From Candidatus Omnitrophota bacterium (GTDB taxonomy: Bacteria > Omnitrophota > Gorgyraeia > B26-G9): DNA of 64,000 bases. The position numbers and the translations under genes are program-made. The notes beneath the pieces are model-generated. The model saw only the letters and a list, made by a program, of their open reading frames with translations, was not told the DNA's origin and searched no databases. Positions 5,126 through 56,000 of this stretch are shown one piece after another (the first letter of the stretch is position 1; each line of letters begins with the position of its first letter). The stretch is from the NCBI GenBank assembly GCA_043805415.1, contig JAZDHZ010000007.1, positions 93,786 through 157,785 on the forward strand, given 5' to 3'.

Positions 5126-5128
5126 TAA

Positions 5129-12478: not shown

Positions 12479-12507
12479 AATATAGCAAAAAACAGCTAAG
12501 TTGTCAA
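12479..12507 (-). promoter_or_regulatory. Candidate sigma70-type promoter for the wecA-like operon
   Basis: The minus strand reads TTGACA (12507-12502), a 17-nt spacer, then TATATT (12484-12479), about 190 nt upstream of the ATG at 12290. AT-rich background makes chance matches possible. Confidence 0.4.
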
Positions 12508-12625
12508 ATGAATAGAATCTGTAAATCAGAAAGGAAAACAGGAGAAATAAAGGAATTTTAAAAGTCAGGAATTGCTATGGAAATATGGTTTATTCCGCGG
12601 ACTCAACTTAAGACAAACATATAAC

Positions 12626-13009: not shown

Positions 13010-13262
13010 TTCAGCTTATTTCAGATTAATAGTTTCTTTAATTTATTTGCTCTTATTTAATCTATTTTTCAAACCCGCAGAGAATAAATCAAAACTATTT
13101 CCCATAGTTTTATAAAGCCTTTTTAAATATTTCATAAGTTTACACTAATGTTTAATTTTTTGCAAATTATTTTTTAAAAATGACAACCATTTTCACGTCA
13201 CCGCGTCGTGGAACGGTTGCAGCCAAATGGATGAATTAAGTATTGTGTCCCTTTATTTACCT

Positions 13263-16240: not shown

Positions 16241-16278
16241 CCGTCCTTGGCTAAACTACACTATTCATAGTTAATTTC

Positions 16279-26447: not shown

Positions 26448-26550
26448 TTGAGCTCCTTCCCTATTTTTGTAATTAGCGGCGATCTTCGTCCTTGCTTTAA
26501 TAAACTTTACGAATATTTTCAGCAATTTTTTTGGATCAAGCCCTGCTTAA

Positions 26551-36059: not shown

Positions 36060-36856
36060 TAATAATAATTCTCCATTTTTTATTTAACGTACCTTTTCTT
36101 GATTCTGACAATGAGGCAATCGACGTTTCTTTGACACTTTTTACAAGTGATCTCAATAATAGATCACTAATTCCACATTTTTCCAATATGTACCCCATAT
36201 ACTTACGAGTCTTTATATTGGGAAACCGAGTCGCATAGTCAATAAGCGTTTTTATGTCACATTTTTTTTCTGTTACAAACCTCTCTACTATCTGGCCTGC
36301 GGCAAAAAAACCGCCTACCGGCTTATTAAAATAAATAAGATCAACCAATGTTTTTTCTTTTGAACTAATGCAAACATTAACGCCTCTTATAATTTTTTTT
36401 TTCAATCCCATACATTTGAGCCCGAGACACATTTATAAACTTAAACAGAATTCCCGCAATCTTTTTTTCCTTGCTCAAGCTCGTATTAAGAACATACACT
36501 TTCTGGAATTGCTGATCTGTAAAGCTGTAATAGTTAAACATTGTAGAATATCCAATATAGTAATCCCCCTTAGGAAAATAAATTGATGGTATTATAAACT
36601 CACTAATACGGCGTCCTGTAGGAACTGATTCAAGAGGAACAAATATATATATGCCGCTTTTAATAGGAATTAAAATATTTTTTGTTTTTAACCTGAATAC
36701 AAGTTGTCTTCTATAAGAAAAATCAGCAGGCAAAAAAGCATCCAACTCTTTTGCTGTTACGATCTCTTTTTTTTCATAGACAAGCCGCGCGATAAGTTCT
36801 GTCTCTGTTTGACTAAGCGAACTAAATGTTTTTTTATTTGGCATATGTACCCCCAC
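36043..36856 (-). pseudogene. abiEi: AbiEi-family antitoxin, split into two ORFs by a +1 nt expansion in an A10 homopolymer
   Basis: ORFs 36377..36856 and 36043..36432 together are the length of a typical AbiEi. They join at plus T-run 36393-36402. Removing one A gives the continuous ...AQMYGIEKKIIRGVNVCISSKEKTLVDL.... This could be a real frameshift or a homopolymer sequencing error. Confidence 0.65.
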
Positions 36857-37539: not shown

Positions 37540-37899
37540 CTAATTTATATTTAATAATTTACCCAGATATTCATTAACCAACTGTTTATCCTGGTCGTCT
37601 TTCCACCAGGAAAAACTAACTCCGGTTCGATACATTCCAGCATCTTCGGTTATCCACTCCACCTTACCGAAAACCCGGATTGTACTAATATCCTTGCTCA
37701 GGCGCAAGTCAATGCTTAACGGCGTGCCAATCGGTATTCTTTCATTGGAAACCACTCCCGCGCCAACCATGCTGATATCGCGCATGGAATATTCTGCGCT
37801 GTTCCAAAACCTGAACCATACCTGAGGGTCAAGCGGGCGAAGACTTATTGAACTGTTCTTAGCTTCCTTGCGTGCGCTATTGCGTCTATCCTTATCCAT
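37540..37899 (-). CDS. Stand-alone PilZ domain protein immediately downstream of the giant ORF
   Basis: RxxxR (R-NSA-R) and DISMVGAG (DxSxxG). AAGGAG RBS ~9 nt upstream of the ATG at 37899. Paralog of 12626..13009. Confidence 0.75.
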   Translation of the reverse strand: MDKDRRNSARKEAKNSSISLRPLDPQVWFRFWNSAEYSMRDISMVGAGVVSNERIPIGTPLSIDLRLSKDISTIRVFGKVEWITEDAGMYRTGVSFSWWKDDQDKQLVNEYLGKLLNIN

Positions 37900-38024: not shown

Positions 38025-41000
38025 TTAAATCGCATTATTAACAAGCTCTCTGGTATCTTCCGGTGATAACTTCTTATCGACACCAGGGATTGCAGCATCC
38101 AAAGCATCTACAGTTGCCGGATCAGCCTCAGGCTTAATTATCATTTCTGGGGTTAAGTCAATTATCTCTTCCCCTTCTTTAGCATCAGGCTTACCGTCTT
38201 TTACCATATCAGTAGGCTCAGTTACTTCTTCCTCTGAAGCCTGGATTTCTGCCGGTGCCGGAGAGATAGCTTCATCGTTTATTGATGATGTTTCATTTTT
38301 AAGAGTATAAGTTAACAATTCTGCCTTGGCTAAAATACCTGTTAAAGTGCGGATTGCCTTTTCAATGCCTTGTTGTTCCCAATATTGTGTTAACCTGTAA
38401 GAATCTTCACGGAATTTTTCGATTTGTTTACCTGCATACTCCATAATATCCTGAGGAGTATTTAGTTTTTTTCTATCTCCCCCATCAAAAATAATATGCA
38501 TACTATCATAGTATCCAATTCTGTCTGATAACTCACCCCACATAAAATATATTTCTTGGTTAAGCGCTTCTATTTTCTGCTCCAGACTTTGCTCGGGCTT
38601 TGTTTCCTCAGAAGAAACCTCAGCAGCTTGTTCTGTAGCATCAGCTGGCTCCACATTTTGATCTGCGCTTACTGCGGAATCTGTTTCATCTGTATTATAA
38701 CTTGTATCAGTTACCGCAGCAGGCAGATTATTTCCACCATTTTGATCCTGCGGACCATTAGGTGGCTTACTATCAGTAGATGATTGACCTTGGCTAGCAG
38801 CAGCTTCTTGGGCTTTAGCCTGCTCAGCTTTCTCTTTATCCTCTTGTTGTTTTCTAATCTTAGTATCTTCCGCTTCACCAAGTTTCTTAATTTCAGTCTG
38901 TATGGCGATACCTAATTTATTATCCACGTCTTTTTTAATCTGCACAGAATTACGCTTTGCAGCAAACATCATATCTTTTGCTGCCTGATCATCTCCTGCC
39001 AAATCCTTATAGCTTTCTTTAACTTCGTCCGGCATAATTGCCCACAAAGAATCTTTAAGCAGTTTTTCATTACTTTCCTTGCTTATTAAATTATACATTT
39101 GCAATGCCGTTTCGCTATTTTTGCTGATCAGCTCCTGGGCGATCTTGGCTGGTTTTGCGCCTTCTCTGTATTCTTCAATCTGCGCTCCATCTACATTCTC
39201 AAAGGTCAGGATTTCATCCTCTGCCTCTACCTGCATCCAGAAAACTATTTTATTAAATAAATAAAGTTTTGCCTGATCTTTATTAAATGCTTGCACAAAA
39301 CCATTTGGAATCATATCCTGAGCAGTCATCAAAGCCAGCAGATCTTCAACTACTTTTTCTTTCGCATCCAAAGCATCATTCCGCGCGCCTCTTATACCTG
39401 TTCTATTCTGTGCAATAAAATCATTTACCGCACTAGTGATAAGAAATTTTCCGTCATAGACTTTACCAAATTGACCAAGATAAACATTTTCAAAATATTC
39501 TTGCATGAGTTTTAAGAGCGATGCTTTTGGATTTTCCTCCTTATTCAAAACATACTTAATATAAGGATCTACGCCAACAGCATTCCAGATCAAATCAATA
39601 TTATCCGGCACCTGCATAGCCAGAATTAATGATTCCATGTTATTTAAAACTAATGCAGGGATATTATCCTGTTTAATATCATTAATCAGATATTTCATGA
39701 GCTGATTCGCAATAATCTCTTTCTGATTGTCTTGATATTTCTCTATTATAGTATTCTGTTTACTTGAGATTGCCTGCTTTAAATTAGTTATTTCATCTTC
39801 AATCGCTTTTTGACGCGAAGCATCTTCTGTTATTTTAAGCTCTTTCTCAAGAGCGCTGAGAAGCTTCATTCTCTGGTCAATTTCTTTATTTTCATTTGCT
39901 CCGGTAGTCAATACTATCATCTGAAAAACAATACGCTCAAGATCATCTCCAGCTTCATTCCATATAACCGCATACAGGTTTTCTCTTAATTTGCTAAGCG
40001 CTGTTTTGTATTTCTTCTCTATTTCTTTTTTCTCTTCATCGCTGCCTGCGGCTTTTAACTGCTTATTGAATGCCTCGTTTAATGTAATCTCCCGCGGGAT
40101 CAGTTCCTTTAACACGTTTTTGTATTTAAATACGATCATAGGCATATCAAAATCAACCACCCTTTGATATTGACTCTTTATTGTTTCATCAGTTTTTTTA
40201 TTTAATTGTTCAAGCAGGTACTTGTTTATTTCCTGTTCATCAAAATTATTAGCCATAAGCAGAAAATATACAGCTTCCTGAGGTAATTGCTGCCAAAGAG
40301 CTTTAATTGATTCCGCTTGATTAGCGATATATTCATCCTGAGATATTTTTGACCCGTCCTTATTCATGTATTGAACGCGGTTATCGATCTCTTTTTGTGT
40401 GAATGCCGATAGTTTTTCCGGTAAAACAATGTTTTCAAAAGCAAATTTATAATTATTAACAAACTGCGCATCAGCAGTAAACAGCTCTGCGAATAAGGCT
40501 TCTGCTGCCTGTTCTTGATCTATTTGATAATCATTTGACCAGAGTTTCTTTTGATCCGCGTCTAATTTGTTCCATATCTCTGTCTTTAATTTATTTTTAA
40601 GCTCTACATCTTTTTGTTTATCCGCTATATATTTACCAATATCGCTTTTAATTCCTTGATATTTCGCATCTAAAAATATCTTGCCCAGAATATCAATCTT
40701 AGACATTTGTTTCGCGGCAATCAGCGCATCTGCAGCTGCTTTTTCCAAACTAAATTTCTCTGTTGTTTCCTTCTGGATTTGAGCACTTTTCGCATCAAAT
40801 TCTTGCGCTTTATTTATTTTCCCTTCTAACTCCGCATTCCGCAAATCCTTAGATCTCTGGAAGAAATAGCTCGGACGCGGACTATAGCGCTGAATAATTC
40901 CTTCAAAAACCAAAAAGCCCAAGAGTAGACCTAATCCCGCTATAAAATTCGGCGCGAATATAAGAATAGCCAGAAACTCAATAATATAACGCGCCGGCCG

Positions 41001-44000
41001 CACCCCGGCATCCTGGGCTTTTTCCCATTTTGCTTCATCATATTCTTGAGCGCTATACTTGGGAGTCATCATCAAGCGCAATGCCGGATATAAAATTGCC
41101 AGTGTCCACAAAGGCGCCGCGAACACGATAAAAGAAGCAAAATAAGAACTGGCCACTAAGGTGGCTACGAATGCTAAACCAAAAATAATATACGGCGCCG
41201 CAAAATAATTTCTGTCAAAAAATTGGCCATCTTTAAATAGCGGGACCCCGTGGGCTTTAAGCCAAGCTTGCTTACCGCGCCACATCGGACGGATATAAAG
41301 ATTTTTAATTCCGTTGAATATTCCGGAGAAGAATGCCTGATCCCACATGCTTTGATCGCGCTCTGACTTCCAGGCATCGCGCAAGGATTGAAATTTTGTC
41401 TTGCCTCTAGACTTCCACAAAGTACTGAACACACTGCCAGCACCTTTTAAAATTCCGGATTCAACTACATAGGTAAGAATATAAGGCCCAAATAACCAGC
41501 CAATCAGCGCGAAGAAATAAAGGAACCAGGTGGAAATAAGCATAGTGGTTACCGGAACAATAAGCATTGTAATCGGCAGGAGTATGGCCGCGATCTTTGC
41601 CGGCCAGGTCGCCAGGCTCTGACGGTAATATTTATTAAAATCCTCGTTCATTGTCTTAAGCCGTACTTCTTTTTCTGTGTAAAGAAATACTGGTCTGGCA
41701 TTAACCCCTTCGGCAATTCCCTGAACCACATAATGAGGAATAAGTATATTAAAGAAAATAAAATTCTTCGCGATCCCGGACAGAGTTACCCATATCCCTT
41801 TAGCATAACTGCCTTCGGATGCAACGTGTGCCCAGTAGGCAGGAAGATTAATCGCTTCAGCAAAGACAAAGCCGACAAATACCCAGAAATAAGGGAAGAC
41901 TAAGGCTAGGAACGGATTGACTGGAGCCAAAAGCCCGGTAAGAATAAGCCCGATGGCTGTAAAGGCAACCACGCATAGAATAACCAGTGGTTTTTTCCAA
42001 TAATGCCAAGCAGAAATAACTGTTCCCCATTTTTCATTCCAAGGGATTATATTACTGCTGATAAAACGCTTAAACTGGCGCCTCATAAGAAACTCCACAC
42101 TGCCGGCAGCCCATTTTGCCAGAGGAACTAATAAATCACTGAGAGACGGCGGCATACGCCATTGGAGTTTCATATATTCCACATGTCTGGTAACCATGCC
42201 GAAAAGCATAAATAGCAAAGCGCTGATCAGATCTTCAGATACATAATCATCCTGCAGCCCTTCGTATTTATACATAAAATCTCTTCGATAAACACCCTTA
42301 CCATAATAACCCAGAGTATCCACAGTTTCCTTAATCCGCATTACCGAACTCTGCCATGCCTTTTCCGCGAGTGCCAGGGCGCGTCCGATTGAATTAAGCT
42401 TTTCCACAAAAATCGTAACTGTAGTCAAAACAATCCCTAATTTGGGATTACGGTTGAATTCTGTTAAGACACGGAACATATTCGGCGTTTCTTCATAATT
42501 AATTTCAAGATGCGTATCCATACCCCAAACAATCTCACCGCGCACATAAGGCTGGGCAACAGCAGCGTCACCATATTTGGAAAAACGGATCTGATCGCCC
42601 TCAAAATCACGAATCTGCCCCTTTGGATCTCCTTTAGCAAGCATATGCGTATATTCACCATTATAGCGCTTAAAATCAAGCAGGAGTTTTCTTACCTGCG
42701 CATCACTTATATTCAGACTCTTAATATCCTCTTCGCTCATGGTATCAAAATTAATATTCAGGAATTGATCGATTGCCGGGCCTTTACTTTTTACCAGATT
42801 ATCTGTGGCAAAAAACTGGAACTTCAAGGTTACCAAACGCTGATATTCTTTGGCGGTTTGCAGATAATAAGACAGTTCATCAGCTGTTATCTGTGCTGCC
42901 TGAACAAACAGTTCTTTTTGCCGAGTATCAAGCGCCTTACCTTGCGCATACATCTGGCTTACAGCTGCCAGCTCTTTGGCTAATAAATCCGTGGAATCAG
43001 ATTCAAAACCCAGAATTCTAAATCTATTTAATATAACATCCAGCTGTGCTTTTGTTTGCTGATAACGATTATTTTGATAAAAATGCTCCACATACTCACG
43101 GTAGCGCTGGCGCATATAATGCTGCGACTGGACCCAGCGCCAGGTTGTCGGCATGCGGTAATTTACCCAATCCTCGATCATGTGAATAATTCCGTCAAAT
43201 ACTTCTATTCCCTGAGGCTGGGTTAGTTTTGCGCGAAGCTGCGCGATCTTTACATCTAAAGCTGCTTTTTCTCTAGAGCCCGGCATTGTTGAAAATAATA
43301 CTACTAATTCTTCCAGCGCAGCCTGATCAGCTGCATTGAGTTTGCCTTTTTCTCTGGTCCAATACTTCTGCAATAGAGCTATTTGGTTTTCATATTCATC
43401 TCTAAACCGTTGCGTCAGATGGTGGAATTTTGACGCCTTTTCCCCTTTTTCTATTCGAATAACCTCATCAAGAAAATAATAGTACTTTTCTCCTCCTCCG
43501 GCTAAAATAAAGATACTGAATACCGGCAGTTTTTCAAAGCCTTCAATGCCAGGCTGGAATCTAAAATAACCAGACATAAACCTGAGCAAACGCTGATTAG
43601 CCTCTTGATTTTTCGGCCTAGACAACTTCATCCGGTCTAACTTTGCTTTTACTGCTTCAGCATCAGTCATCTCATTCGCCGTGAACAGATAATCATTTCG
43701 TTCCTGCTCACTGATCTTTGCCTGTTCAAGCAGATGATTAATCGCGTCGTTCCAGACCTCAACCCTTAATTTACCCGAGAAATCTTCGACTTTCAGCTGA
43801 TTATTATCATCAATAAAAATCTTTTCAAGCCGGCCTTTTAAGCGCTCCGAACGCCAGGTAAATATTCTTCCGGTTAAAGGCGCTATCTTCTTGCTAAAAT
43901 GCACAGTCCAGGCGATAAAAAATGCGCCGATTTCCTTGATCGAAAAATAGGTCAAAGGCAAGAACAGCAAAAACGGCAGAACAGTTATAATGGCAAAACT

Positions 44001-47000
44001 AATTCCAAATCCCAGGCCAAGAGAACTGGTAAGCGAGCTGGCCCAAAGCATTCCGTAACTTCCAACAACATAACCCATAAAAATATTATACAGCACTGTG
44101 ACAATCATTGTCTGGCGCCAAAAACGTTTGGCCTTTAATGTCTTTAAACCAGCTGGGCCTTTTTCCGTGCCTTTGGTCCAGAAACGGTCTTCTTGTCCAA
44201 AATTAAAATTAGGATTATATTCAGAATTAAATTTTTCTATTCTATCTTTATATTCAGAAGGTAATAATTTCAAAAATAAATTAAGATAATCCGGCTGAAA
44301 TACTGTTACAATAAACGCAATAATCACAATCACACTCACCAATAAAACACTTGGAAAGAATAACGAAAGCAATCCACCAATAATAATCGTCGCGACAGTT
44401 GACAAAGCTCCGATAGGGCTAGTAAATTTATTCAGCCAATTAGCAACTTTAGTATTTTTAGCAATAGTCTTATTCGCCAATGACACAAACGGAACCATGA
44501 GTTCCCCAAAGAAGGCGATCCAGCCAATTTTATACATTTTAAGATATGTTTCATTATCTTTCAGGGCTTTATTCACTGCTGGTTTAAGCTTTGTATCCAC
44601 CAAATTCTGTATAAGCTCAGACGCTTTTGCCTCAGCGTCTTTGGCTTCTTTTGGTGTTTCTTTTAGCGGCTTTTTGGGAAGCGCGCCTAGTTCTTTGCTC
44701 AGATCAATATCCAGTTCTTTGATCGGGTCCTCATAATAACGGAACAGATCATCCATATCCTCTTGCCCAAAAAGTATGGTTGGATCAGCCAGCAATCTGC
44801 CGGTTACAGTAACTTCTTTCCTTCTATATCGCTCCAGCTTGCTCTGAATCTGATCAATAATAACCCTTCTCCAGAAACCAGCATGCAAACGCATCAGACT
44901 GACAATCTCGCTTTGTTTATCAACCTTATAAAGCGCATATGATTTGCGCATCAGGTAGCGAATTAATGGTGTACGACCAGATAAAGAACTGCCTAATCCA
45001 TAAGGCTGGCGATAAGGCAGCATAAACACTCTTTCCCACAGCTTAAACCGCAAAAGATTCGGAGTTTTCTCACCTTCAAAAGCCTCACTTTTCATAGCAT
45101 TCGCTTTATCCAGACCGATTAATTCAGGTTCCTCTATCTCAAATTCCTGATCATAAGTACCGCCTTGGATTTGCCTTATTCCATAAGGATTTTTTATTAA
45201 AACAGATAAAATTTCAGCCAGGCGTTCTCTGACGATACGATCGTATTCAGCTGTAAATTCTCCACGTGTATCAATATCAGCAAAATATTTATTGAGGTAT
45301 GGACTAAAAGCCGCGTCTATGCATTCTTCAATAATATAATAATCAATTGCAGAAGGGATTCTCTCATTATTTTGCAGTTTTTGGATAAGATCGTTAATTA
45401 CAGCTTTAAATTGTTCAAGGGTTAATAATCCAAGTCCTTCTTTATCATCTAAAAGGTTTTTAACAATTGAAGCAATCGGCGGAGTAAACATCGCGTCAAA
45501 GGAATCTTTTGGTTCCGGCAGTTTATCAGACAAAACTTTATTAAGTTCTTCAATACCCTTATCCGCGGCTAAAACTATCTCCTTCAGCTCAGCTATTACC
45601 TGCAGTCTTGATTCGCCGGAACGGGGCGGGGCGCGCAAAAGATCGCCTGAGCCGAAAATTGTATTAAGTATTTTATAATCAATACCCTGCTCATTTAAGA
45701 ACTTCTTTGCCTGATCAAGAGTTGCAAATCCTTTTTTCTTAAGATCATTAGCCGGCAATTCCTGAGCAAATGCCGTTGCCGCTGATATTGCTATATCTTT
45801 GTCAACTCCGGCAGCAGTCAACATTTTCTCCAGCTCTTTTTCATTTGTTCTGTTCAGCTGCTGCAGCCTTAAATTCGCATCATCATAGAAATCAGGGATT
45901 ATATCAGCAACCACAATATTATCCAGTATACTTGCCTTGGTTTCCGGATCAACTTCTTTTTTATCAAGAAATTCACCCAGAGCAGCTTCATCCATAAAGC
46001 TTTTTTCTTTGCGTCTTTGGTATACTATTTGGCTTGCTATATATTTTGCATTGGTTTCTGCCTGCGATAAAAGTTCTTCTCTTTGAGCTTCACTCAATTT
46101 ATCATCTTGCGCGGACTGTTCTATTTTTTCCTTATCAAAGATGAGGTTTACAATCTCATCTTCGTTCATGAGATTGATATTGTTCTTGCCTTTTTTCTTT
46201 GCCTTGTCTGCCTTTTTCTTCCAGACCAAGCCAGTAATAACATTAGCACCTACTAAATAAACCGCTAAAACAATAGGAATCACCAACCATGGAAAATAAA
46301 AACTAGTAAATGGAAGTCTGACTTTATAACTAAATACCTGTACAAATTTAAACCCTAAACCTTTGGGGCCAATAGTTACTTCCCGCATTTGACTGTCTTT
46401 ATCAAGATATTTTATTTTTACTCCATCGCCCTGAAGATCATCTTTCTTTTTCTGCTCGTTTGCCTGAGCTAATAATTTCTCAAATAATTTTTCGTCTCTA
46501 AACTTCTCGCCTTCTAACTTAATATGAAACAGTTCCAGTCCGCGTTTGCCCATATTGGCAGTCTGACTGATAACATTATTCTGAAATTTATCAAAATATA
46601 GCCACCAAAGCTGACTATTGATCATCTTTTTGCCTTCAAAAGGCACTGCTTTATCAGAAAAATGCTCTTTTTGCGACAATCCCAAACTCTGATGCATGTT
46701 TGCCCCTTTAATCAGCGGGCTGCCATTGCTTAAAAGCAGTGCTTTCTGTCCGCTTAACGAGGACAACCAGGAGGACAACCAGGACGTGCTGGTTTCGCCA
46801 ACTGAATCGGTAAGCACAAATGTATATGCATTCTGGTCATGAATACTATGATGGATTTCATATGGATGCCAGTTTTTGAGCCCGGCATTAAGATTATCGA
46901 TAACTTCCTCAGGATTATGTGAAGTATCATCACGCAATGTTGCCACCAGGTTCTGGCGCTCATCAAAAACATCGATTCTCCATCTGGGATCTTCACCCAG

Positions 47001-50000
47001 CATTTTCTTGGATATCTGGAACTTGATTCTGCCATCAGGATAATACAATGTTCGTACTTGAGCCAGCTTATCTTTGCGCATATCTTCGATATCATAAACC
47101 ATAGTCGCGTCAGGACGTAAGAAAAGATTTTTTGAATTAGCCCGAGGTTTAAATTTAGCTTTAAAGTCTTTAACTATCTGTTCTGTTGATAAACCGCTTT
47201 GCATTAAAGCTGGATTAAAATCAAAGGTATTGCTGCCCTGTGATAATCCCATATTTTTCTCTTTAAGATACTCAAGAAAAGTTACATATGTTTTTTCAAG
47301 CTCCATCAGCTTAATTTTGTCCTCGGGTCCTGACTGATAAGTACGGTCAACATAACCGTTAAATATGATTTCAAGCTCGCCTTTATTATTCTTGATTTCC
47401 ATCCACATCTGAAGCACTTTCGGGATATCCGCTGCATTAGCATCCTTAGGAGCAACAGCAATTGTCGCTGTCCGTTCCCTCATGCCTTTATCAAGCAGTG
47501 TGATAAATGCTTTATCTTTAGCATTGGAAGGATCTAATTGAATCTTCATTTTTCCCTCAAGACCAGCAAAGAAAGCAACCACATCCGCATCATCTTTAAA
47601 CCCGCCTGTCTTATATTTCTCATCAATCATCTTATCAACAATATCTTCCGCAGTACCCTGTTCCGTGCTTGTTATATCAATTAATTCTTTTATTAGATTT
47701 GCTCTGGATGCCGGCAAACGGAACAATACCCACGAATCTTCAAACTTTCGCTCCATCTTATCGGCTTTTGATTCATTTATTCCTAAGGCAGCGTTTTTGT
47801 CTTCAGGAACAAGTGTCTTTATAACCGCATAATCAACAGCGCCTGTTTTTCTGGCAAGATTAATTGCTTTTGAATAGTTAAACAATGTCCAGCCTTGTTC
47901 AGTTAAAAAAGCTGTTGTAACATCAGCAATTCCAAATTTACCATAATCAGTATCAAATCTTGCCCGCAATTGCATTATGCCTTTAAAAACTTTTTTAGCA
48001 TCCCAATATCCCCAGATATGATTTATAACTCTTCCCAATCTATCCTTTGTTTTGCGATAATGCACATCTGCTTTTGAGAAAACCTTATCGCCATCTCTAG
48101 TGAATTCTGATTTCCAATACTCGATTCCTTCATATTGTATACTGCCTTGCTTATCAAGATACCTATCTATGGAGGTCAGATGGTCAGCATACAATGCCTC
48201 TTTTGCTTTAGCTTCATCACTGTATCGTTTAAGCCATTTAGCTTGCTCTTTTTCACTTAGCTTATCCCAGAATTCCTGCTTTTTCTTAGCTTTAAACAAA
48301 GTTTCTTTTGCCGCAGCTTCATCACCTTTAGACTCTTCAAGTAATTTGTTTCTGTCTTCAATACTAATCGTATCCCAAATTGCTTCTTTTTCAATCTCAA
48401 TAAGCATTGACCTGCTGACTTTTTCCTCAAATAATCCGCTGCACATACCAGCAAGCTGATCCTGAGTAAAAGCCTTAAGATTAAACTGATCTTTCTTTTT
48501 ACTAGCTGCTATTATATCTTCAGCTATATATGCCGGTGAGATAAACCTGAGGATTTCTTTTTGATCGCTGTAATCTGATTTCAGAATACCCAGAACAGCT
48601 TTATGGAAATTATCAGCAACAATAGCTTCGCCGCCAGCAGCAGTTATTGCCGCGTTAAAAGCAGCGAGTTTTTCACCACTTAAAGTTTCCCTGTATACAT
48701 TTAAAGCCGCCCTTGCTTTGTCAAAAGTTGTTTCACCTAAACTCTTAAGAATGTCCGCGTTAGAGCGGAAGAAGAAAGACTCTCCTCTATTGGCAATACC
48801 AGCCGCATCCAGATCATCATCTTCAAAATAAGAAAATGACATTATATTTCTTTTGAAAGATTCGTACCTTAACGCCTTTTCCGACGTCAATAAACCATCA
48901 AATAAGATAATAATTCTGCCTTTATTATCTTTTACTTCCTGATAATCAAGGTTTCTCTTTCGTTGGTGCATATGGTAAATAACATTTCCTCTTTTATCTA
49001 TAAATTCCAAGTCTGATTTAGGCACATTTGACCCGGAATTAAACGGCGCGATCTGTGATTCTGTGATTAATGATTCTCCCTGATCAAATTCATGATTGAT
49101 ATTATAAGCAAAGTATTCTAAAAGCACATCAGTCACGGCAATTGTCAGCGCCTTCTTATCAGCTTTCAAGTTTGAAAGCTTCTCAAGTCCCGCGATTATT
49201 TTTTTGGCGTGATATTTCCCCTGTGTATAGTTTTCTAATTTAGCTTCAATCAGCTTAGCATCAGTTCCGCTGTTAATTATAATATCCACGATTTCAGGAG
49301 CAAGCTGATTAAAATCAATTTCTTGTTTTTTGTTTTCCTTGTTATCAAAATAAAAATATGATTGAGAATTAAAAGCAAGACCTAAAGCTCCTAGATTCTC
49401 CTTGTATTCATCAGGCCAGTCATAATTTAATTTAGAAACCCAAACCCAAATAAAATTACCATTAAATTCATATCCTGAATATTTAACCCGGATATTGCCC
49501 TTATTATCCTTTAAACCTTGCCATAACAGTTTACTCTTAGCATCATAGATTAAGGCCTTTACATATCCAGCATCATTAAGGTAATCAGTTTCTTTAAAAA
49601 CCTGCATGATAATATTTCTAAAATCATTATCTTTTAAACCTTTAAGCTTAAGCTTATTTAACTCTTCCGCAATGCTCTGAGCAGTAATAAACGCGTTTTC
49701 ATTGATTAATTTTTCTGTTGCCCGGATAATTGATTCATGTAAAGTTTTAAGTGTTTCAGCGTCAACAGTTAGTTTTAGTTTTTCTAATATTGGACTTAGC
49801 TGCTGCATCTTTAAATTAAGCAAACTACTAACTTTAAACTCATCTAAATTTTTATATTCATTGGTATCAAATTTCTGTAATATTGATAATGCCAGTAATT
49901 TATTTTCGCCTTGTTCCAATAAATTCATATCAGGATTAATCCCATAGTCATAATTCTTATCATATAAATACGTGCTGCCCAAAGTAGCTATATCAAATTT

Positions 50001-53000
50001 CCCCAAACGCTGCATCGCGCTTCTGATTTCAATACGCATCAGTTCTGGGTCTGTAATCCCCAGAGTTTTCCAGGCTTTGGCCATCTTTCCGGCAATAAAA
50101 TCAAATAGTCTAGGGTCATCATCATAATAGAATCTGGTTGATTTTTGCGGCACAAATATTCCATCTATTTTTTTACCGTCAATAGAAACAAGTACGCGGC
50201 CATGAGCATCTTTCACTTCTTGCCAAACAAGCAGAGTTCTCTTATTATCCAGCTCAACAATCATCTCGCCTCTATTGTTGAAATAATCGCTCAACTGTGT
50301 TCCCGCTTTGCCTTTATGCGGCTTCAGTACAGAAACTGAAACCGGCATGGCTGGTTCTTCTTTTGTGGTTTTATCAAGCAAATAAGTTTCACCGGACATG
50401 GCAAACCCAACCCGGCCCAGATCATTCATAACCTTTTCATTTACGCCTAATTCACCGAACTTATCCTGCTGATAAACATAATGGTATTTTGTTACTTTTA
50501 TCGGATAGTATTTATTGTCTTTGCCCTTCTCATAATCATATACTTTAATCGGACGCCCAAAATTATCTTTTATTTCTTCCCAGGTAAGCTGCTGTTTAAG
50601 ACGGACATTCTGTATCGAGATATTTCCCTCTTTACTGAAATAGTCTTCCACTTTAATAAGTTTGCTTGCCTTAACAATCTCGGTAAGCTCCGCTTGTGTG
50701 ATTTTAACTTGATATTTAGTCCCTAATAATTCTGTTAATGCTTTAACCGCTTCAAGAAATTTCTGCTCATCAGATTGTTCCAAAGCAGATACTTTATTTT
50801 GAATATCCCTTAATAACTCTTTATTCTCGGGAGCTAACTTTAATCCCGCGATAATCTTGCCGGCTAGTGTTTCCATGGTATTTAATGTTGAAAAAGCAAG
50901 TACTTCTGTATCCTCTTTAGTATCTTGATCATAAAGAAAAGTAAAACCATACAAAGCAATATTCCGGCGGCCAAGCTCATCCATTATTTCCTGGGATTTA
51001 CCTTCTTGAAGCTTGGGCAGCTTCTTTTCCCAAGCATCAAGAGCTGCTTTAAGTTCAGGATGCGCCTTGCGATAGTTATTAAAGCTTTCATAATCATAAA
51101 AATAATATGTTTTCTGATTCCTGAAAAATTCGCCGTTTTTCACAACTCCATCAAATTTAACCTGTATTTTTCCTGTGCTGTCTATCTGTTCCTCCCAATG
51201 GAGATTATTTAAAACATTTTTCATTTCCACAAGCACTTCGCCGTTATTATCGATATAAACATCGCGCGTCTTTTCCCGGCCCTGGACATCTCGGTAAGTT
51301 TCCTTCCTGTGTTTTTTAATCCGGGAAACCGACATCAGCGCGGTTTGCTCGTTCTTCTCCTGGTCATAAATATAGGTAGCGCCAATAAGCCCTACTCCAA
51401 ATTTTCCGTAGCGGTTCAGGTCGCTGACGAAACTATCATTAAACATATCCTGTCCGGATTTTATATATTCATCAACAACCGCTTTAATATCCGCGTCTTT
51501 GCCTGCTTTTTTCCGATAAGTTTCCAGGGTTTTCTTAAATTTGTCGCTCAGGATATCCCAGCCTAATTTTTCATATTCAATAATCAGCTGCCTGTAAAGT
51601 TCCGGGTTTTCTTTGCTAAATTGCTGAATTTGCTGCAAGCTGTAGAAAAAGCGTGAGGCCTGCGCCTTTTCAAAAACTTTTGTCTGCACATCAAGTTTGC
51701 CCAGGTACCGGATTATTGTTCTTCCCAGATTATCAATAAGGTCCTGACGGGTCATCCGCTGGTTAGCATTGGTCATCTGAACAAGTATGTTCCCCTGGTC
51801 ATCAACATAACTCTCTTTAATTTTTTCCGTATGATCTTTCTCATCAATATAAGCCTTTTTAAATTTCACCAGGAATGAATGTCCGACTAATCCGCCGGTT
51901 TTACCGGTTTTAGCATCGTAAGTATGGGTTTCTCCAATCATCGAAACACCATAAAGCCCGAGAATATCCATGTCCAGAGCAAAACGCGCTTCAATCCCGT
52001 ACTTTTCAGCAAGGTCTTTCTCATATTTGTAGTGGAATGTCGTTACTTTTTCAGGAATAACTCTTCCGGTTTGTTTATTGAATTTTCCGCTGTATTTAAT
52101 TTTTACGCGGCCATTACCGTCAATCACCTGCTCGCTGATTTCTTTCTTTTGCGCGTCTTTATTTAAGACCTGAACATTGCCGTCTTTGGTTAAATATTTG
52201 CCGTTCGCGTCTGCTTTTACCACTGAACCAGCGACCAAATCAAAAGGCACCGCTGCTTTTTCATCAAAGCTGAAAGTCGCGCCAATAAGCGCGATGTCAA
52301 TTTTCCCCTGACGATTTAACTCTGCCAGCAATTTCTCATCTTCTATATTGATATTTAAAGTGCTTAGTTCATCCTTAAGCTTTTTATAAGCATCCGGGAA
52401 TCTCTTCTTAAATTGATTCAACTGGTTAACACTATAAAAAGAGTGGGAAACTTTTTCCCGCACAAACTGCTTTGTCTGAGCGTCAATATGCCCGTAATAA
52501 TCTACTGTCTTTCTTCCCAGATTGTCGACTAATTGCTGCCATACCAGCTTTTGCTTAGGAGCATACATCTGCAGCAATACATTACCTTCATTGTCAAAAT
52601 AACGTCCGTCTTTAAACGGCTGGGCAACAGACCTTCCCACTGGTTCATCACTTACTCTTATTCCCCGGCCATTTTCAAACTTATACAAATAAGTTTCACC
52701 GACCATGGCTACACCCTGCAATCCCAAAGTGTCCATTGTATCGGGATCAACACCAAAAGCATCAAACTGCTTCCGCAGTTCCCTGGACTTGGCATCTTCT
52801 CCGCCGGGATATTCATAGTAAAAGGTGGTTTCTTTTTCCACGTTAAAACTCATACCTGTTTGTGAATCGCGGGCATCAATCTCAAAGGGCTTGTTTTGTC
52901 CATAGGGGATTACCTGCAGCCGGTTTTCTTTACCAGTAGCTTCTCCCATGCTCCCATCATACTTTTTAATCAAGCGGCCGTATTGGTCACGCACTTCCAG

Positions 53001-56000
53001 AAAACGTTTATTTCTTTCGTGGTCAATAACCAGTTTTGTTGACCATTTGGAATGTTTATCCCAGTAAACCGTATTTCCTTTATCTTTATCCGCAAGCGGC
53101 AGCACCTTTGAACTAAGCACAGGCTTATCTTTATCCCAGCGCGGTTTTTCCAATGTGCCGGTATTTACATAGGTTTTACTTTCCTGCTCTCTGCCCCATT
53201 GGTCAAATTTAATTCTGGTAACATATTTTTCATTAAAAGTCATTACCGGCAGCTCATAATCTTTATATACTTCATAAGTTACCGCTTTAGAATCCGGATC
53301 AATAACTTTTTTAATAAGTATCGGGCTCTTTATCTTTACAACTTTTCCTTTGTTTTCTTTGCTAACTCCTGCCGGATCCTCAAGGTTTTCATCATAAGAA
53401 ACTGTTTCAGTTCTTTTCAGTTCTTTTCCTAATTCAGCATCCTTTCTCACTTCACCGGAGTTGTTAATATATACCTTGCTTTCAGACTCAAGATCATACT
53501 CATTGTATTGCATTACAACAATTTTATCTTTTGTGATTACTCGCTCAAGTAAGCCGCGTTTAAAAACCCGCATTTCCCAGTCATTAGTTCTTCCGTTTTC
53601 TTCTTCGCGTATGTATTCCCGATGGAAAGGAAATTTTAAAGTAACTGTAATATCGCGTTTTTCTCCGTTAATTTCAACTGCCTGGGAGCTTTCTTTGGGA
53701 ATATGAAATACCCAGCGGTCGCGCATAATCTTCTGCATTTGGGCAGCGTCGATCTCATCATTAGCCACCATTTGTTTTATTCTATCCAGGTAATCTCCCA
53801 ACGGGTCATAGTATTGCTTTAAACTTAATTTATCTTTTTCTATTGTCAGAGAACCAACTGATTTAAAAAAATCAAAGCAAACAGCGCTTATTTGCTGATC
53901 AGTTAAGAAACCTATTGCCAACTCCTGTTTTTGAGCAATTAATTTTTTAGCCAATAGCTGCGGATCAATAGTTTTTTCTTTCATCGCCTTAGAGACTTCG
54001 ATAAAAGCGCTTATAATTTTTGATACATTCGCGTTTGGCACTGTTTCTGATTTTACACCGGTTATTCTGGCAATGCTCTTGCGAATAGCTTCTCTCTTGC
54101 CGGAGGCTATTTCTAAAAGCCTTCCAGATTTTAAATCAGTAATAATCGCTCCGCCTTCATCTAAAGTTTTGTATTGCTCCGCGGCGTTCGCCTGCTCATT
54201 TTCTCTTTTTTCTCTTGAAACTTCTATTGCCTTAGCCGGGGCGATTAAAGTAACTGTAATTAGAGAATTGTCCTTAGCATTAAGATATTGATATACACCC
54301 TTGAATATATCCACGCTGATAAGCTTATCCGGCCCATATCCAGCAGCCTGCTGTTTTAAGCTAATAACCTGTTCTTTAGCTTGCGCGAGCTTAAGCTGTT
54401 CATCAGAACTCAGCTTTCCTGCTTTGCTTTTAAGTTCAAGCCCTATGATTTCCTGGTTTAATTCTTTAACCTGGTCTTCTAAATATTTCTTTTCAGAAAG
54501 AAAACTAAGCTTTACCCACCCTTTGTAATAAGGATGCGCTGCTTTTTTATCTTCCAGTTCTTTCTTTTCGCTGTCGCTTAGTTCTTCCCCGCGGGATTTT
54601 TTCTTTAAAAGCACAATAATTCTATCCAGGGTTTTTTCATCCGCGCTTGATGCTGTGAATGTCGTACCTTTAGTGTACTGGATGATCATTTCATTGATCT
54701 GCTGTTTTGCTGAACTTAAATTTTTCTCATCTTCTTTTGTCCAGGCAGCGGGATCAATCTTTTTCCTGGACTGGAGTAAATCAATTTTTAGCTTCTGATC
54801 AATAATCGAACTGTCAAACCCTTTTCCGCTGCTGATTCCCAAAGGAACCACGGGAATGCTTTCCGCCCTGCGGATATCAAAAGGATTAACATCGCTCATT
54901 GCCAATAAAATCCATAAAGAGTTCATACTGGCCAGGGAAACTGTATGAAAATTGCTATCCTTATATCTCTGGATCTGACCGTTTACCGCGTCCTTAGGCA
55001 AGGTGCTGTCCGGGAAAAATACCCCTAATTCAGTCCGAACCTCTAAAGGCTGGAGATTTAAGAGCAGGGTTTCTGATTTTTTCCTCTGCTCCTGGGCAAG
55101 TCCTTCCTGAAACATAGCTGTATAGAAATTTGCCATTATCTTGTGCGCTTTAGCTACATGCGCGGTCATTTCCGGGGATACTACTTCCAAGCGGCCGCCG
55201 AGGCCGGGTTTATCTGTATAGCCATAACCGGAAACCTCAACAACTTTACCCTTGTTATAATGCTTTGCTTTTATTACCTTGCGCTTTTCAAGAGAGCTCA
55301 TTATTTTTTCCGCGGAGTCTTGGCCAAAAACATAAGCATTGTCTTTATTACGTAAATTATTCAGGATTTCCGGCCCCAGCACAATAACCGCCAGAGCATT
55401 GACATCTGTCGCGTAAATATCGTCTTTTTCCCAACGCGGCTTATCCTTATCAGTTGAAGTATTCCGCATACCGCGGGAGAAAAATCCCTCTTCTTTGTTG
55501 TACACACTCGGCAGCCAGTTTAATATTTTTTCCGCCGCGTCTTTATAATCATCATTACCGGTTAAATCATAAAGCATCATGAACACGCCGAACGCGTTTA
55601 TGTTTTCTTCTGTTGATTTGCTGTCAAGCTGCGTAGGCCCTTGGCGAATGCCGCCGTCTTCATCCTGTAATTTAATCAGGAACGCGCCAAGCTTTTCCGC
55701 TAATTTCAAAGCATCTTTTCCTTTATTATCCAGTGATTCGCGGAATTCAGAAACTCCTGAAGAAGAAAACCATCCCGAATCTCCTCTTCCTTTAAATATT
55801 TGGTCTGCTTTTCCTTCTCTGCGGAAATCAGCAAGCGCTTTTGTCACCTTTTCTTTTTGGCGATCAAGTACTGCCTGCCATTTTCCCGCGGGAGCATGAC
55901 GCATTAAGTTTTTAATCAGCATCGCGGCTAGCCAGTTACTGCTGCCGGCATTATAACGGAATTCCGCGATCGGTTTTTTTGCTTCTGTAAGCAGCTGAGA

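What the first reader, a model, noticed from the sequence alone, without database searches (positions are those of the whole stretch)
40880..44535. Fungal/plant-type GT48 (Fks1/callose synthase)-like glucan-synthase module embedded near the C-terminus of the giant ORF
Between two hydrophobic blocks, ~530 aa show a collinear series of motif matches to the Fks1 cytoplasmic catalytic region. The motifs are PxNxEAxxR(I/L)xxF, (M/L)PxF(T/S)(V/I), KF(K/Q)F, GDxK...RGE...D....NY.EE....R.VL.EF, L.YG, and (N/S)ED(I/L)...........H.EY. The TM-core-TM topology also mirrors Fks1. GT48 is regarded as an essentially eukaryotic family, so a bacterial copy fused into a giant SecA/M23/LysM protein would be unusual. 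The Fks1 QCGKGRD motif is replaced by KLQWRMP, so the module may be catalytically divergent or may serve only as a polysaccharide-conducting channel. A PilZ gene sits directly downstream (37540..37899). By analogy with PilZ-activated bacterial exopolysaccharide synthases (BcsA, Alg44), this suggests c-di-GMP control of polymer synthesis or translocation.
Basis: partly seen in the sequence, partly recalled or inferred. Interest (0 to 1): 0.85.

Follow-up and report, generated by a model that had tools for sequence, protein, structure and literature searches.

The report
Glucan-synthase-like module in giant protein
A giant membrane protein of a tiny, probably predatory bacterium (phylum Omnitrophota) carries a built-in polysaccharide-making and -exporting machine that is a distant but real relative of the fungal and plant beta-1,3-glucan (callose) synthases, a family usually thought of as eukaryotic.

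Summary
Window 40880-44535 (minus strand) lies in a giant ORF of at least 8657 aa, and the listed motifs are there and collinear.

Pfam's GT48 model (PF02364) does not detect this copy. Only GT2_3 matches, below threshold. Homology to GT48 is nevertheless solid:
- An exhaustive search found 99 relatives, mostly inside Omnitrophota giant proteins. Several of them hit PF02364 at up to 1e-94.
- A profile built only from relatives that individually show no detectable Fks1 similarity ranks Fks2/Fks1 first in the PDB (E 3e-19), just ahead of BcsA (8e-16).
- A eukaryote-only GT48 profile scores the window 31 bits; 500 shuffles reached at most 6.4.

The catalytic residues (Fks1 K1082, D1102, E1221/D1222, K1261) are conserved, so an active enzyme is likelier than a bare channel. 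The acceptor-site residues K1246/R1248 are W/M, and the gating loop is BcsA-like (FLYTEK).

A rough tree places the window in a bacterial lineage outside the clade of eukaryotic GT48 plus some bacterial sequences. The product (beta-1,3-glucan is hinted by GH158-like genes) and c-di-GMP control through PilZ are inferred, not shown.

The parts
38025..63998 (-). Giant ORF, at least 8657 aa, with its N-terminus cut by the window end. It contains a SecA-like/Helicase_C domain (aa 176-250), an M23 peptidase (aa 1227-1340), a LysM domain (aa 1446-), many TM helices, and the synthase module near the C-terminus.
41463..44150 (-). GT48-related processive glycan-synthase module, taken as the extent conserved across the family (ORF aa 6617-7512). 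Layout: TM pair, GT-A domain with a helical insert, interface helices, TM channel helices, gating loop.
   Evidence: Exhaustive phmmer search found 99 homologues with a conserved core and a second collinear block. Profile against PDB. Models. Fold searches.
43896..44117 (-). Two long TM helices immediately before the GT domain (ORF aa 6628-6701). They occupy the position of the TM pair that precedes the GT domain in Fks1/BcsA.
   Evidence: Hydropathy. Model helices 18-64 and 66-106 with pLDDT 70-89.
43485..43616 (-). N-terminal signature shared with GT48: PKNQEANQRLLRFMSGYF ... LPVFSIFILAGGGEK. This is the first beta-strand; E6837 aligns with Fks1 E851.
   Evidence: Alignment. A profile of this N-terminal block (N-block), built from Fks1-blind sequences, matches Fks1 810-890 with E 3e-5. 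Eukaryote-only HMM, domain 1.
42456..42584 (-). FSKYG...RGE...MDTH...RVLTEF. K7141 aligns with Fks1 K1082. D7161 aligns with Fks1 D1102, the second D of the D,D,D signature, which coordinates the metal/UDP.
   Evidence: D is invariant and K nearly invariant in A1. Residue mapping.
42294..42377 (-). Interface-helix-1-like segment LALAEKAWQ (E7212 = Fks1 E1173) and LGYYGK (YG invariant; K7234 replaces Fks1 H1195).
42147..42245 (-). Finger-helix motif YVSEDLI (E7255/D7256 = Fks1 E1221/D1222; D is the catalytic base), then HVEY and KLQWRMP. W7280/M7282 replace Fks1 K1246/R1248.
   Evidence: E and D are invariant in A1 and A2. The W/(M,S,T) substitution is shared by the window's subclade.
42072..42131 (-). 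Interface helix 2: LVPLAKWAAGSVEFLMRRQF. K7295 = Fks1 K1261. W7296 sits where BcsA has the W of QxxRW.
41664..41693 (-). Gating-loop candidate PVFLYTEKEV. It aligns with Fks1 RYISTGRG and has the BcsA-type F-x-x-T-x-K pattern.
   Evidence: F is nearly invariant in A1. Alignments. Model confidence here is low.
41469..41498 (-). WLFGPYILTY, which aligns with the GT48 C-terminal motif APFVFNP at the end of a TM helix.
40893..41612 (-). Further C-terminal TM helices (ORF aa 7463-7702). They are conserved with P0001 but modelled with low confidence.
37540..37899 (-). Stand-alone PilZ protein (119 aa) starting 125 bp downstream of the giant ORF. RxxxR (RRNSAR) and DxSxxG (DISMVG) are intact.
16279..18231 (-). 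Second PilZ protein (650 aa): PilZ domain, TM helix, coiled coil, then a C-terminal domain of about 350 aa of unknown family. In 9 other genomes that C-terminal domain is part of the same polypeptide as the synthase module.
23063..24955 (-). GH158-like (beta-1,3-glucanase family) protein. Both catalytic Glu motifs are kept (LGNEN, TEYG).
   Evidence: GH158 specificity from PMC13195107
20150..21439 (-). Second GH158-like protein (LGNEN, TEFG). Its closest relative among the module-bearing proteins is a domain fused to the bona fide GT48 domain of P0034.
25008..26525 (-). MFS_2 glycoside/oligosaccharide-type transporter, lying upstream of the two GH158-like genes (between them and the giant-ORF end of the locus).

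Best explanation
Window 41463..44150 (minus strand, ORF aa about 6617-7512) encodes a membrane-integrated, processive polysaccharide synthase-translocase of the 'cellulose-synthase fold', built into an Omnitrophota giant protein.

**Shown.**
- A cytoplasmic GT-A domain is inserted between TM helices.
- It belongs to a large bacterial radiation of such modules. One subclade of that radiation is bona fide GT48 (PF02364) and groups with the eukaryotic enzymes.
- The nucleotide-sugar and catalytic residues are conserved: K7141, D7161, E7255/D7256, K7295.

**Inferred mechanism.** The GT-A domain binds a UDP-sugar (probably UDP-glucose), with the metal/UDP coordinated by D7161. D7256 on the finger helix acts as the base that adds each sugar to the non-reducing end. 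The growing chain is held by aromatic residues (W7280, W7296) and pushed through a channel formed by the flanking TM helices. The FLYTEK loop opens and closes the active site.

**Further inferences.**
- The product is a beta-glucan, possibly beta-1,3-linked. The locus has two GH158-type beta-1,3-glucanase-like genes, and a GH158-like domain is fused to a bona fide GT48 relative.
- The changed acceptor-site residues (K1246/R1248 to W/M, H1195 to K) may mean a different linkage or sugar.
- Activity is probably tuned by c-di-GMP through PilZ proteins acting in trans.
For: **Homology chain.**
- The window matches P0034 (E 6e-18 against 1.8 billion proteins).
- P0034 matches PF02364 at 1.3e-94, Fks1 at 172 bits and plant callose synthases at 32% identity, E 4e-61.

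**Profile of 26 sequences that individually show no detectable Fks1 similarity, against the PDB.**
- Fks2 E 2.7e-19 and Fks1 E 5.7e-18, covering 361 of 378 profile positions, including the TM region, gating loop and PFxFNP.
- BcsA E 8e-16, covering the first 235 positions only.

**Direct test on the window.** A eukaryote-only GT48 HMM gives 31.2 bits in two collinear blocks. Shuffled controls reached at most 6.4 bits.

**Structure.**
- Core model: pLDDT 75, pTM 0.74.
- Full model: pTM 0.69, confident for residues 23-840.
- Foldseek on the full model: the top 13 hits are all Fks1/Fks2 (E 1e-11 to 2e-6), followed by BcsA (1e-5).
- Core model: TM-score 0.62-0.64 to Fks and 0.55-0.60 to BcsA.

**Catalytic residues.** The D and ED residues are invariant and the two K residues nearly invariant at about 23-32% mean column identity.

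**Constraint.** Against its 56%-identical orthologue, the module is among the best-conserved parts of the giant protein (70-80% identity, versus 26-50% in the flanks).

**Polymer hint.** Two GH158-like ORFs with intact catalytic Glu motifs lie in the locus, and a GH158-like domain is fused to P0034. GH158 requires beta-1,3 linkages at subsites -2/-1.

**Regulation hint.**
- The PilZ gene has intact motifs.
- The non-PilZ domain of a second PilZ protein is fused to the module in 9 other genomes.
- pilZ genes generally follow giant genes.
Against: - Pfam PF02364 gives no hit on the window even at E<=10. The only Pfam hit is GT2_3 at 19-23 bits, below its gathering cut-off of 27.
- Five Fks1 active-site residues that are needed for function in yeast are not conserved: N1104 to H, E1155 to V, H1195 to K, K1246 to W, R1248 to M.
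- The gating loop and later TM helices are modelled with low confidence.
- No donor sugar, product or c-di-GMP effect has been measured.
- The GH158-like genes lie 13-18 kb away and could just as well serve digestion of prey or environmental glucans.
- No outer-membrane export component was identified.
Confidence: 0.6

Rival explanations
1. It is simply a divergent GT2 (BcsA/cellulose-synthase-like) enzyme. The resemblance to GT48 would reflect only the common ancestry of all cellulose-synthase-fold enzymes, and the product could be cellulose or another beta-glycan.
For: - The only Pfam hit is GT2_3, and 10 of 15 family members hit GT2_3 weakly.
- BcsA scores almost as well as Fks in the profile search (61 versus 68-72 bits).
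- The module has the W at the QxxRW position and an FxxTxK gating loop, as BcsA does.
- One relative is annotated 'GT2 family protein'.
Against: - The Fks match is longer (361 versus 227 profile positions) and includes the C-terminal TM, gating-loop and PFxFNP part that BcsA does not match.
- The N-terminal signature P.N.EA..R...F / first-strand block aligns collinearly with the start of PF02364.
- There is a continuous gradient of relatives up to 387 bits against a eukaryote-only GT48 HMM.
- 7 of 15 aligned members pass PF02364.
- Foldseek on the full module ranks 13 Fks structures ahead of BcsA.
Confidence: 0.2
2. The module is a catalytically dead relic that serves only as a membrane anchor or as a conduit for a polymer or protein made elsewhere.
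For: - Fks1 K1246/R1248, H1195, E1155 and N1104 are replaced. The corresponding Fks1 mutants are non-functional in yeast.
- Giant proteins evolve fast.
Against: - D7161, E7255/D7256, K7141 and K7295 are invariant or nearly so across sequences only 19-37% identical.
- The replacements are themselves conserved within the subclade (W-R-[MST]-P), which points to a changed site rather than a decayed one.
- The catalytic stretch is the best-conserved part of the module between orthologues.
Confidence: 0.1
3. The module was acquired recently by horizontal transfer of a fungal, plant or protist GT48 gene into this bacterium.
For: GT48 is generally regarded as a eukaryotic family (general knowledge, not verified here). 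Some bacterial relatives are 32-35% identical to plant callose synthases.
Against: - The window is only about 21% identical to Fks1 over 184 aa.
- It sits in a separate, bootstrap-supported bacterial lineage (92%) outside the eukaryote-containing clade (99%).
- The module is widespread in several bacterial candidate phyla.
- The sampled eukaryotes form one clade (96%) rather than enclosing the bacterial sequences.
Confidence: 0.03

Closest known systems
[quoted passage not shown]
   Same: - Both have a GT-A domain inserted between TM helices, with interface helices and a TM channel.
- Sequence blocks are collinear: P.N.EA..R...F, first strand with E851, K1082, RGE...D1102, L.EF, YG, (N/S)ED, H.EY, K1261-x-(G/A)-A-G..E, the gating loop and P(F/Y)xxN.
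- Best PDB profile hit and best Foldseek hit for the whole module.
   Different: - It is not detected by PF02364.
- N1104, E1155, H1195, K1246 and R1248 are replaced.
- It has W at the QxxRW position and an FxxTxK gating loop, as in GT2.
- There is no FKS1_dom1 match.
- It is embedded in a protein of at least 8657 aa rather than forming a roughly 1900-aa enzyme.
- It is bacterial, so Rho1-type regulation is not expected.
- It lies outside the GT48-proper clade in the rough tree.
BcsA, the bacterial cellulose synthase catalytic subunit (GT2), activated by c-di-GMP through its own PilZ domain
   Same: - Same D / ED / (R/K)W / FxxTxK logic.
- Bacterial, with a PilZ protein and a glucanase-like gene in the neighbourhood. 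This parallels the BcsA PilZ domain and BcsZ.
   Different: - PilZ is a separate small protein (plus a second PilZ-TM protein), not a C-terminal domain of the synthase.
- The N-terminal and C-terminal sequence blocks are GT48-like and do not match BcsA.
- No BcsB or BcsC homologues were identified.
- The glucanase-like genes are GH158-like, not GH8.
Omnitrophota giant proteins ('Archaeovorin'-type; West-Roberts et al., bioRxiv 10.1101/2023.11.21.568195)
   Same: Divergent SecA-like ATPase, many TM helices, peptidase and glycoside-hydrolase-like domains. pilZ follows immediately downstream, with glycoside hydrolases and transporters further downstream.
   Different: That paper and a 2026 survey list GT5, GT1 and starch-synthase-type transferases. 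Neither mentions a membrane-integrated GT48/GT2-type synthase module. No searched paper contains both 'Omnitrophota' and 'glucan synthase'.
Alg44-type arrangement (a PilZ domain, a TM helix and a periplasmic domain acting on a separate synthase, as in alginate synthesis); recalled from general knowledge
   Same: ORF 16279-18231 has a PilZ domain, one TM helix, a coiled coil and an extracytoplasmic domain. In other genomes that last domain is fused to the synthase module.
   Different: The extracytoplasmic domain has no detectable similarity to membrane-fusion proteins or to anything in Pfam or the PDB. No interaction has been tested.

Membership tests
CAZy GT48 / Pfam PF02364 Glucan_synthase | Match to the curated family model above its gathering score (37.2 bits) | tested here: not met
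   The window gives no PF02364 hit even at E<=10. By contrast 7 of 15 aligned relatives pass, the best at 1.4e-95.
CAZy GT48 / Pfam PF02364 Glucan_synthase | Statistically supported homology to GT48 catalytic cores | tested here: met
   - Eukaryote-only HMM: 31.2 bits in two collinear blocks, against a shuffle maximum of 6.4.
- Fks1-blind profile: Fks2/Fks1 are the top PDB hits, E 3e-19 and 6e-18.
- Transitive link through P0034.
CAZy GT48 / Pfam PF02364 Glucan_synthase | Core catalytic residues (Fks1 E851, K1082, D1102, E1221, D1222, K1261) | tested here: met
   The window has E6837, K7141, D7161, E7255, D7256 and K7295. D and ED are invariant and the K residues nearly invariant in the family.
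CAZy GT48 / Pfam PF02364 Glucan_synthase | Fks1 acceptor/product-site residues N1104, E1155, H1195, K1246, R1248 | tested here: not met
   The window has H, V, K, W and M at these positions. The GT48-like bacterial subclade keeps the Fks1 residues. Their functional importance in Fks1 is from PMC10499315.
CAZy GT48 / Pfam PF02364 Glucan_synthase | Phylogenetic placement inside the GT48 clade | tested here: not met
   Neighbour-joining (NJ) tree on 179 core columns. The split enclosing eukaryotes plus the GT48-like bacterial sequences has 99% bootstrap support. The window's lineage is separate (92%). This is a rough method with a single GT2 outgroup.
CAZy GT48 / Pfam PF02364 Glucan_synthase | N-terminal accessory domain (FKS1_dom1, PF14288) | tested here: not met
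   No Pfam hit anywhere in the giant ORF, nor in aa 5930-6540 scanned alone.
CAZy GT48 / Pfam PF02364 Glucan_synthase | UDP-glucose-dependent synthesis of beta-1,3-glucan | not testable with these tools
   Indirect hints only: GH158-like genes in the locus, and a GH158-like domain fused to the relative P0034.
Cellulose-synthase-fold membrane-integrated processive glycosyltransferases (BcsA, CesA, Chs, HAS, Fks) | GT-A domain packed on a TM channel, with interface helices and a finger helix | tested here: met
   [not shown]
GT2 BcsA-type cellulose synthase | D,D,D,Q(Q/R)xRW signature and FxVTxK gating loop | tested here: inconclusive
   The second and third D are present, along with K-W at the RW position and FLYTEK. 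The first D was not securely identified, and Q/R of QxxRW are absent (LAKW). Pfam GT2_3 scores 19-23 bits, below its cut-off of 27.
GT2 BcsA-type cellulose synthase | C-terminal PilZ domain fused to the synthase | tested here: not met
   There is no PilZ domain in the giant ORF. PilZ is encoded separately at 37540-37899 and 16279-18231.
PilZ c-di-GMP receptors (ORF 37540-37899) | PF07238 match with RxxxR and (D/N)xSxxG motifs | tested here: met
   Pfam E 8.9e-10, 39 bits against a gathering cut-off of 22.5. RRNSAR and DISMVG are present. Binding itself was not tested.
Omnitrophota giant ('Archaeovorin'-type) proteins | Very long ORF with a SecA-like ATPase, many TM helices, hydrolase domains and pilZ downstream, in an Omnitrophota genome | tested here: met
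   Domain content and neighbourhood. A 70%-identical relative lies on an Omnitrophota MAG contig. Source labels of the relatives. Family description.

The most novel reading that the evidence does not exclude
The module in this window belongs to a large, previously undescribed bacterial radiation of synthases related to GT48, found mainly inside Omnitrophota giant proteins. In this reading, the eukaryotic beta-1,3-glucan/callose synthases arose from that radiation: the eukaryotes form one clade nested among the bacterial sequences. The bacterial enzymes would make a beta-1,3-type glucan under c-di-GMP control through PilZ proteins acting in trans, as part of the cell-surface or predation apparatus.
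Probability: 0.25. Interest if true: 0.85.

Novelty: new variant of a known kind. Interest (0 to 1): 0.66.

Why it matters
GT48 glucan synthases build fungal cell walls, where they are the target of the echinocandin antifungal drugs, and make plant callose. They are normally treated as a eukaryotic invention whose link to bacterial cellulose synthases is visible only in the fold.

This window, together with the 99 relatives it led to, shows a graded series of bacterial sequences running from bona fide PF02364 domains to forms that mix GT48 and BcsA features. If that series holds up, it makes the origin of the eukaryotic enzymes directly testable.

It also offers small bacterial versions for biochemistry, for example the 1447-aa stand-alone P0027.

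For Omnitrophota biology, it adds a polysaccharide-synthesising engine to giant proteins that have so far been discussed mainly as degradative or attachment machines. It also gives a concrete reason why pilZ genes sit next to them.

Tried and rejected
- **Word-indexed homologue search.** The 1220-aa segment found nothing. The family profile returned only 3 short proteins. The index appears not to return the giant proteins, so the exhaustive search was the one that mattered.
- **Single-sequence phmmer against PDB.** No Fks or BcsA hit.
- **NCBIfam.** Nothing in the module.
- **Pfam on the unannotated stretches.** Scanning aa 5930-6540 and the C-terminal 958 aa, as well as the 1422-aa neighbour protein, gave nothing usable.
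- **Looking for the PilZ/GH158 context around a relative.** On contig L002 the giant gene is broken into many small ORFs, and tblastn found no matches. Contig L001 is filled entirely by the giant gene.
- **Identifying the C-terminal domain of the second PilZ protein.** No Pfam or PDB match.
- **Considered and rejected:** chance motif matches, recent eukaryote-to-bacterium transfer, and eukaryotic contamination. Against contamination, the window carries pilin, ABC-2, AbiEii and PilZ genes, and the relative P0027 lies on a 1.99-Mb bacterial contig.
- **Literature.** No paper in the searchable library links GT48/PF02364 to bacteria or to Omnitrophota. Subscription-only literature, CAZy and InterPro could not be consulted.

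Full report
**1. What is at the coordinates**

The finding lies on the minus strand inside a single ORF, 38025..63998. The ORF is at least 8657 aa and its N-terminus is cut by the window edge. The finding covers ORF aa about 6488-7707.

Hydrophobic blocks at aa 6546-6701 and aa 7338-7702 flank a soluble core of about 630 aa.

Elsewhere the ORF carries a Helicase_C/SecA-like segment, an M23 peptidase and a LysM domain. A PilZ gene follows at 37540..37899, with Pfam E 9e-10 and both the RRNSAR and DISMVG motifs.

This context matches the published description of Omnitrophota giant genes: a SecA-like domain, many TM helices, pilZ immediately downstream, and glycoside hydrolases and transporters further on. 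A 70%-identical relative lies on an Omnitrophota MAG (metagenome-assembled genome) contig.

**2. Standard family models do not settle it**

- Pfam gives no Glucan_synthase (PF02364) hit, even at E<=10. It gives only a sub-threshold Glyco_trans_2_3 match (19-23 bits against a gathering cut-off of 27) over aa 7236-7373.
- Single-sequence searches of the PDB found nothing useful.
- The word-indexed protein database also found nothing.

The 'fold' half does not (see section 4).

**3. Homology to GT48 is nevertheless real**

I confirmed my recalled Fks1 809-1540 sequence against PDB 7xe4_F. BLASTP of the window segment against it gives one 184-aa alignment at 21% identity, with E 4e-4 for this single planned comparison. 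The alignment passes through RGE/D1102, the ED motif and K1261-x-(G/A)-A-G.

An exhaustive phmmer search of 1.84 billion representative proteins found 99 relatives, 61 of them at E<=1e-10.
- The conserved core is segment residues 645-1025 (numbering within the 1200-aa query, window 40938..44537 minus strand; segment residue n = ORF aa 6487+n). A second collinear block lies at residues about 130-390.
- 29 of the relatives are proteins of at least 3000 aa.
- Source labels are mostly Candidatus Omnitrophota. There are also Auribacterota (including a complete 1447-aa protein on a 1.99-Mb contig), Endomicrobiaceae, and single Dehalococcoidia and Njordarchaeales MAGs.

Several relatives are unambiguous PF02364 proteins: P0034 at 1.3e-94, P0098 at 4e-84, P0097 at 1e-67 and P0070 at 2e-50. 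P0034 is 32-35% identical to plant, stramenopile and dinoflagellate glucan synthases, with E down to 4e-61.

The critical test avoided these strong bridging sequences. A profile was made from the window plus 25 relatives that individually show no detectable Fks1 similarity. Searched against the whole PDB (local version), it ranks:
- Fks2 (E 2.7e-19) and Fks1 (E 5.7e-18) first, covering 361 of 378 positions. That coverage includes the TM helices, the gating loop and the PFxFNP motif.
- R. sphaeroides BcsA next (E 8e-16), covering the first 235 positions only.
- Then E. coli BcsA and the plant CesAs.

A profile of the N-terminal conserved block (N-block), built from Fks1-blind sequences, aligns with Fks1 810-890, the start of PF02364 (E 3e-5).

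An HMM built only from eukaryotic GT48 sequences scores the window 31.2 bits in two collinear blocks. Over 500 block-shuffled copies of the segment the maximum was 6.4 bits. Against that same HMM the relatives form a continuum from 387 bits down to about 0.

**4. Fold**

| Model | Region | Alignment | Quality |
|---|---|---|---|
| Core | 391 aa | 26 sequences | pLDDT 75, pTM 0.74 |
| Whole module | 1091 aa | 15 sequences | pTM 0.69, confident for residues 23-840 |

Both models show two long TM helices, a GT-A alpha/beta/alpha domain with a helical insert, interface helices and further TM helices.

- Foldseek on the core finds every class of membrane-integrated processive synthase. TM-scores are highest for Fks1/Fks2 (0.62-0.64) and E. 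coli BcsA (0.59-0.60).
- Foldseek on the whole module ranks 13 Fks1/Fks2 structures first (E 1e-11 to 2e-6). BcsA follows at E 1e-5.

The fold class (cellulose-synthase fold) is therefore secure. The preference for GT48 over GT2 rests on sequence-level evidence, not on structure alone.

**5. Active-site anatomy**

The important Fks1 residues were taken from PMC10499315 and mapped through a 27-sequence alignment.

| Fks1 residue | Window residue | Status |
|---|---|---|
| E851 | E6837 | conserved |
| K1082 | K7141 ('SKYG') | conserved |
| D1102 | D7161 | conserved |
| E1173 | E7212 | conserved |
| E1221/D1222 | E7255/D7256 | conserved |
| K1261 | K7295 | conserved |
| N1104 | H | changed |
| E1155 | V | changed |
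| K1172 | A | changed |
| H1195 | K | changed |
| K1246 | W7280 | changed |
| R1248 | M7282 | changed |

- In the family alignments, D7161, the YG pair and E7255/D7256 are invariant. K7141, K7295 and the gating-loop F are nearly invariant. Mean column identity is 23-32%.
- The changed residues are shared by the window's own subclade (W-R-[M/S/T]-P). The GT48-like bacterial subclade keeps the Fks1 residues.
- W7296 sits where BcsA has the W of QxxRW.
- The gating loop reads FLYTEK, the BcsA pattern FxVTxK, against Fks1 YISTGR.
- Against its orthologue P0001, the catalytic stretch is 70-80% identical while the flanks are 26-50%.

This pattern fits an active enzyme with a remodelled acceptor site better than a dead channel.

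**6. Position in the family**

I built a neighbour-joining (NJ) tree on 179 core columns, with 100 bootstrap replicates and one GT2 outgroup.

| Grouping | Bootstrap support |
|---|---|
| Eukaryotes monophyletic | 96% |
| Eukaryotes plus {P0034, P0098, P0097, P0070} | 100% |
| Larger bacterial-plus-eukaryotic 'GT48-like' clade | 99% |
| Window's lineage (with P0001-P0006, P0008, P0009, P0013), separate | 92% |

With this rooting, the eukaryotic enzymes are nested among bacterial sequences. The method and the rooting are crude, so I treat this as a lead and not a result.

Of 15 aligned modules, 7 pass PF02364 and 10 hit GT2_3 weakly. That summarises the in-between character of the family.

**7. 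What polymer, and what control? (inference)**

*Polymer.*
- Two downstream ORFs, 23063-24955 and 20150-21439, have GH158 beta-1,3-glucanase as their best PDB match (E 5e-13 and 3e-9). Both keep the two catalytic Glu motifs.
- GH158 enzymes require beta-1,3 linkages at subsites -2/-1 (PMC13195107).
- The bona fide GT48 relative P0034 carries a GH158-like domain in the same polypeptide. That domain is closely related to the window's ORF 20150-21439 (E 2.9e-26).
- This recurrent pairing hints at a beta-1,3-glucan. The window's genes are 13-18 kb from the module, however, and could serve feeding instead.

*Control.*
- The adjacent PilZ protein has intact c-di-GMP motifs.
- A second protein, 16279-18231, combines a PilZ domain, a TM helix, a coiled coil and an unknown domain of about 350 aa. 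In nine other genomes that unknown domain lies inside the same polypeptide as the synthase module. This is a fusion-based functional link.
- The giant-gene literature already notes pilZ downstream of most giant genes.
- Regulation in trans, by analogy with the BcsA PilZ domain or with Alg44, is plausible but untested.

**8. Comparison with what is known, and novelty**

- The two papers on Omnitrophota giant proteins mention GT5, GT1 and starch-synthase-type domains, not a membrane synthase of this kind.
- No paper in the searchable library contains both 'Omnitrophota' and 'glucan synthase'.
- I found none linking GT48/PF02364 to bacteria.
- Reviews treat GT48 as related to GT2 through the fold.
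- I could not consult CAZy or InterPro. Because several relatives pass PF02364, automated databases may already list bacterial entries.

I therefore rate this as a new variant of a known kind. It is a cellulose-synthase-fold synthase from a bacterial, GT48-related lineage, embedded in giant proteins.

**9. Verdict**

'GT48-like synthase module with the Fks1 layout' is right.
- 'Fungal/plant-type', 'unusual one-off' and 'possibly only a channel' are not supported.
- c-di-GMP control and the nature of the product remain inferences.

Noticed in passing
window 23063-24955 (-) and 20150-21439 (-): Two paralogous ORFs have GH158 beta-1,3-glucanase (9oro_A) as their best PDB match. Both retain the two catalytic Glu motifs (LGNEN; TEYG/TEFG). 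Pfam reports only GH2_C and weak GH72 hits for them. An MFS_2 transporter (25008-26525) lies just upstream of them (on the giant-ORF side).
   Followed up: yes
window 16279-18231 (-): A 650-aa protein combines a PilZ domain, a TM helix, a coiled coil and a C-terminal domain of about 350 aa with no Pfam or PDB match. In 9 other genomes that C-terminal domain occurs inside the same polypeptide as the synthase module (P0015 E 4e-41, P0063 E 8e-38, and others).
   Followed up: partly
window 44877-45776 (-), giant ORF aa 6075-6374: This unannotated stretch just upstream of the module is as well conserved with the orthologue P0001 (72-74% identity) as the catalytic core. It has no Pfam hit. It might be an accessory domain of the synthase.
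   Followed up: partly
window 48399-53024 (-), giant ORF aa 3659-5200: This stretch aligns to several different places in the N-terminal 1700 aa of P0001 at 21-48% identity. That indicates internal repeats of roughly 300-350 aa of unknown function.
   Followed up: no
window 55431-55709 (-), giant ORF aa 2764-2856: Weak, sub-threshold Pfam match to GH76 (alpha-1,6-mannanase family): E 1.6e-4, 21.7 bits against a cut-off of 25.9.
   Followed up: no
window 35160-36059 (-): An AbiEii nucleotidyltransferase toxin gene (Pfam E 3e-28) lies between the PilZ gene and a 1191-aa HEAT-repeat protein. The small ORFs just upstream (36043-36856) gave no Pfam hit, so the antitoxin partner was not identified.
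   Followed up: partly
window 2819-13937 (-): The far end of the window carries a pilin-like gene (N_methyl, 13263-13937), a GT4 (WecA/MraY-type, 11274-12290), an amine oxidase, an ABC-2 permease with an unusually long 1351-aa ABC ATPase protein (5129-9184), and two radical-SAM/SPASM genes.
   Followed up: no
protein P0016 (MHA1676782.1) and P0035 (TRZ47878.1): Two PF02364-positive relatives are labelled as Njordarchaeales (Asgard archaeon) and Dehalococcoidia MAGs. Both are on short contigs (2.9 and 11.8 kb), so mis-binning cannot be excluded.
   Followed up: no
locus L002 (ENA ERZ1286166 contig_1883), 1-18000: In this 125-kb contig the homologous giant gene is called as about 25 small ORFs on one strand. 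This is probably frameshift error in a long-read assembly, and such assemblies will hide giant genes from protein databases.
   Followed up: no
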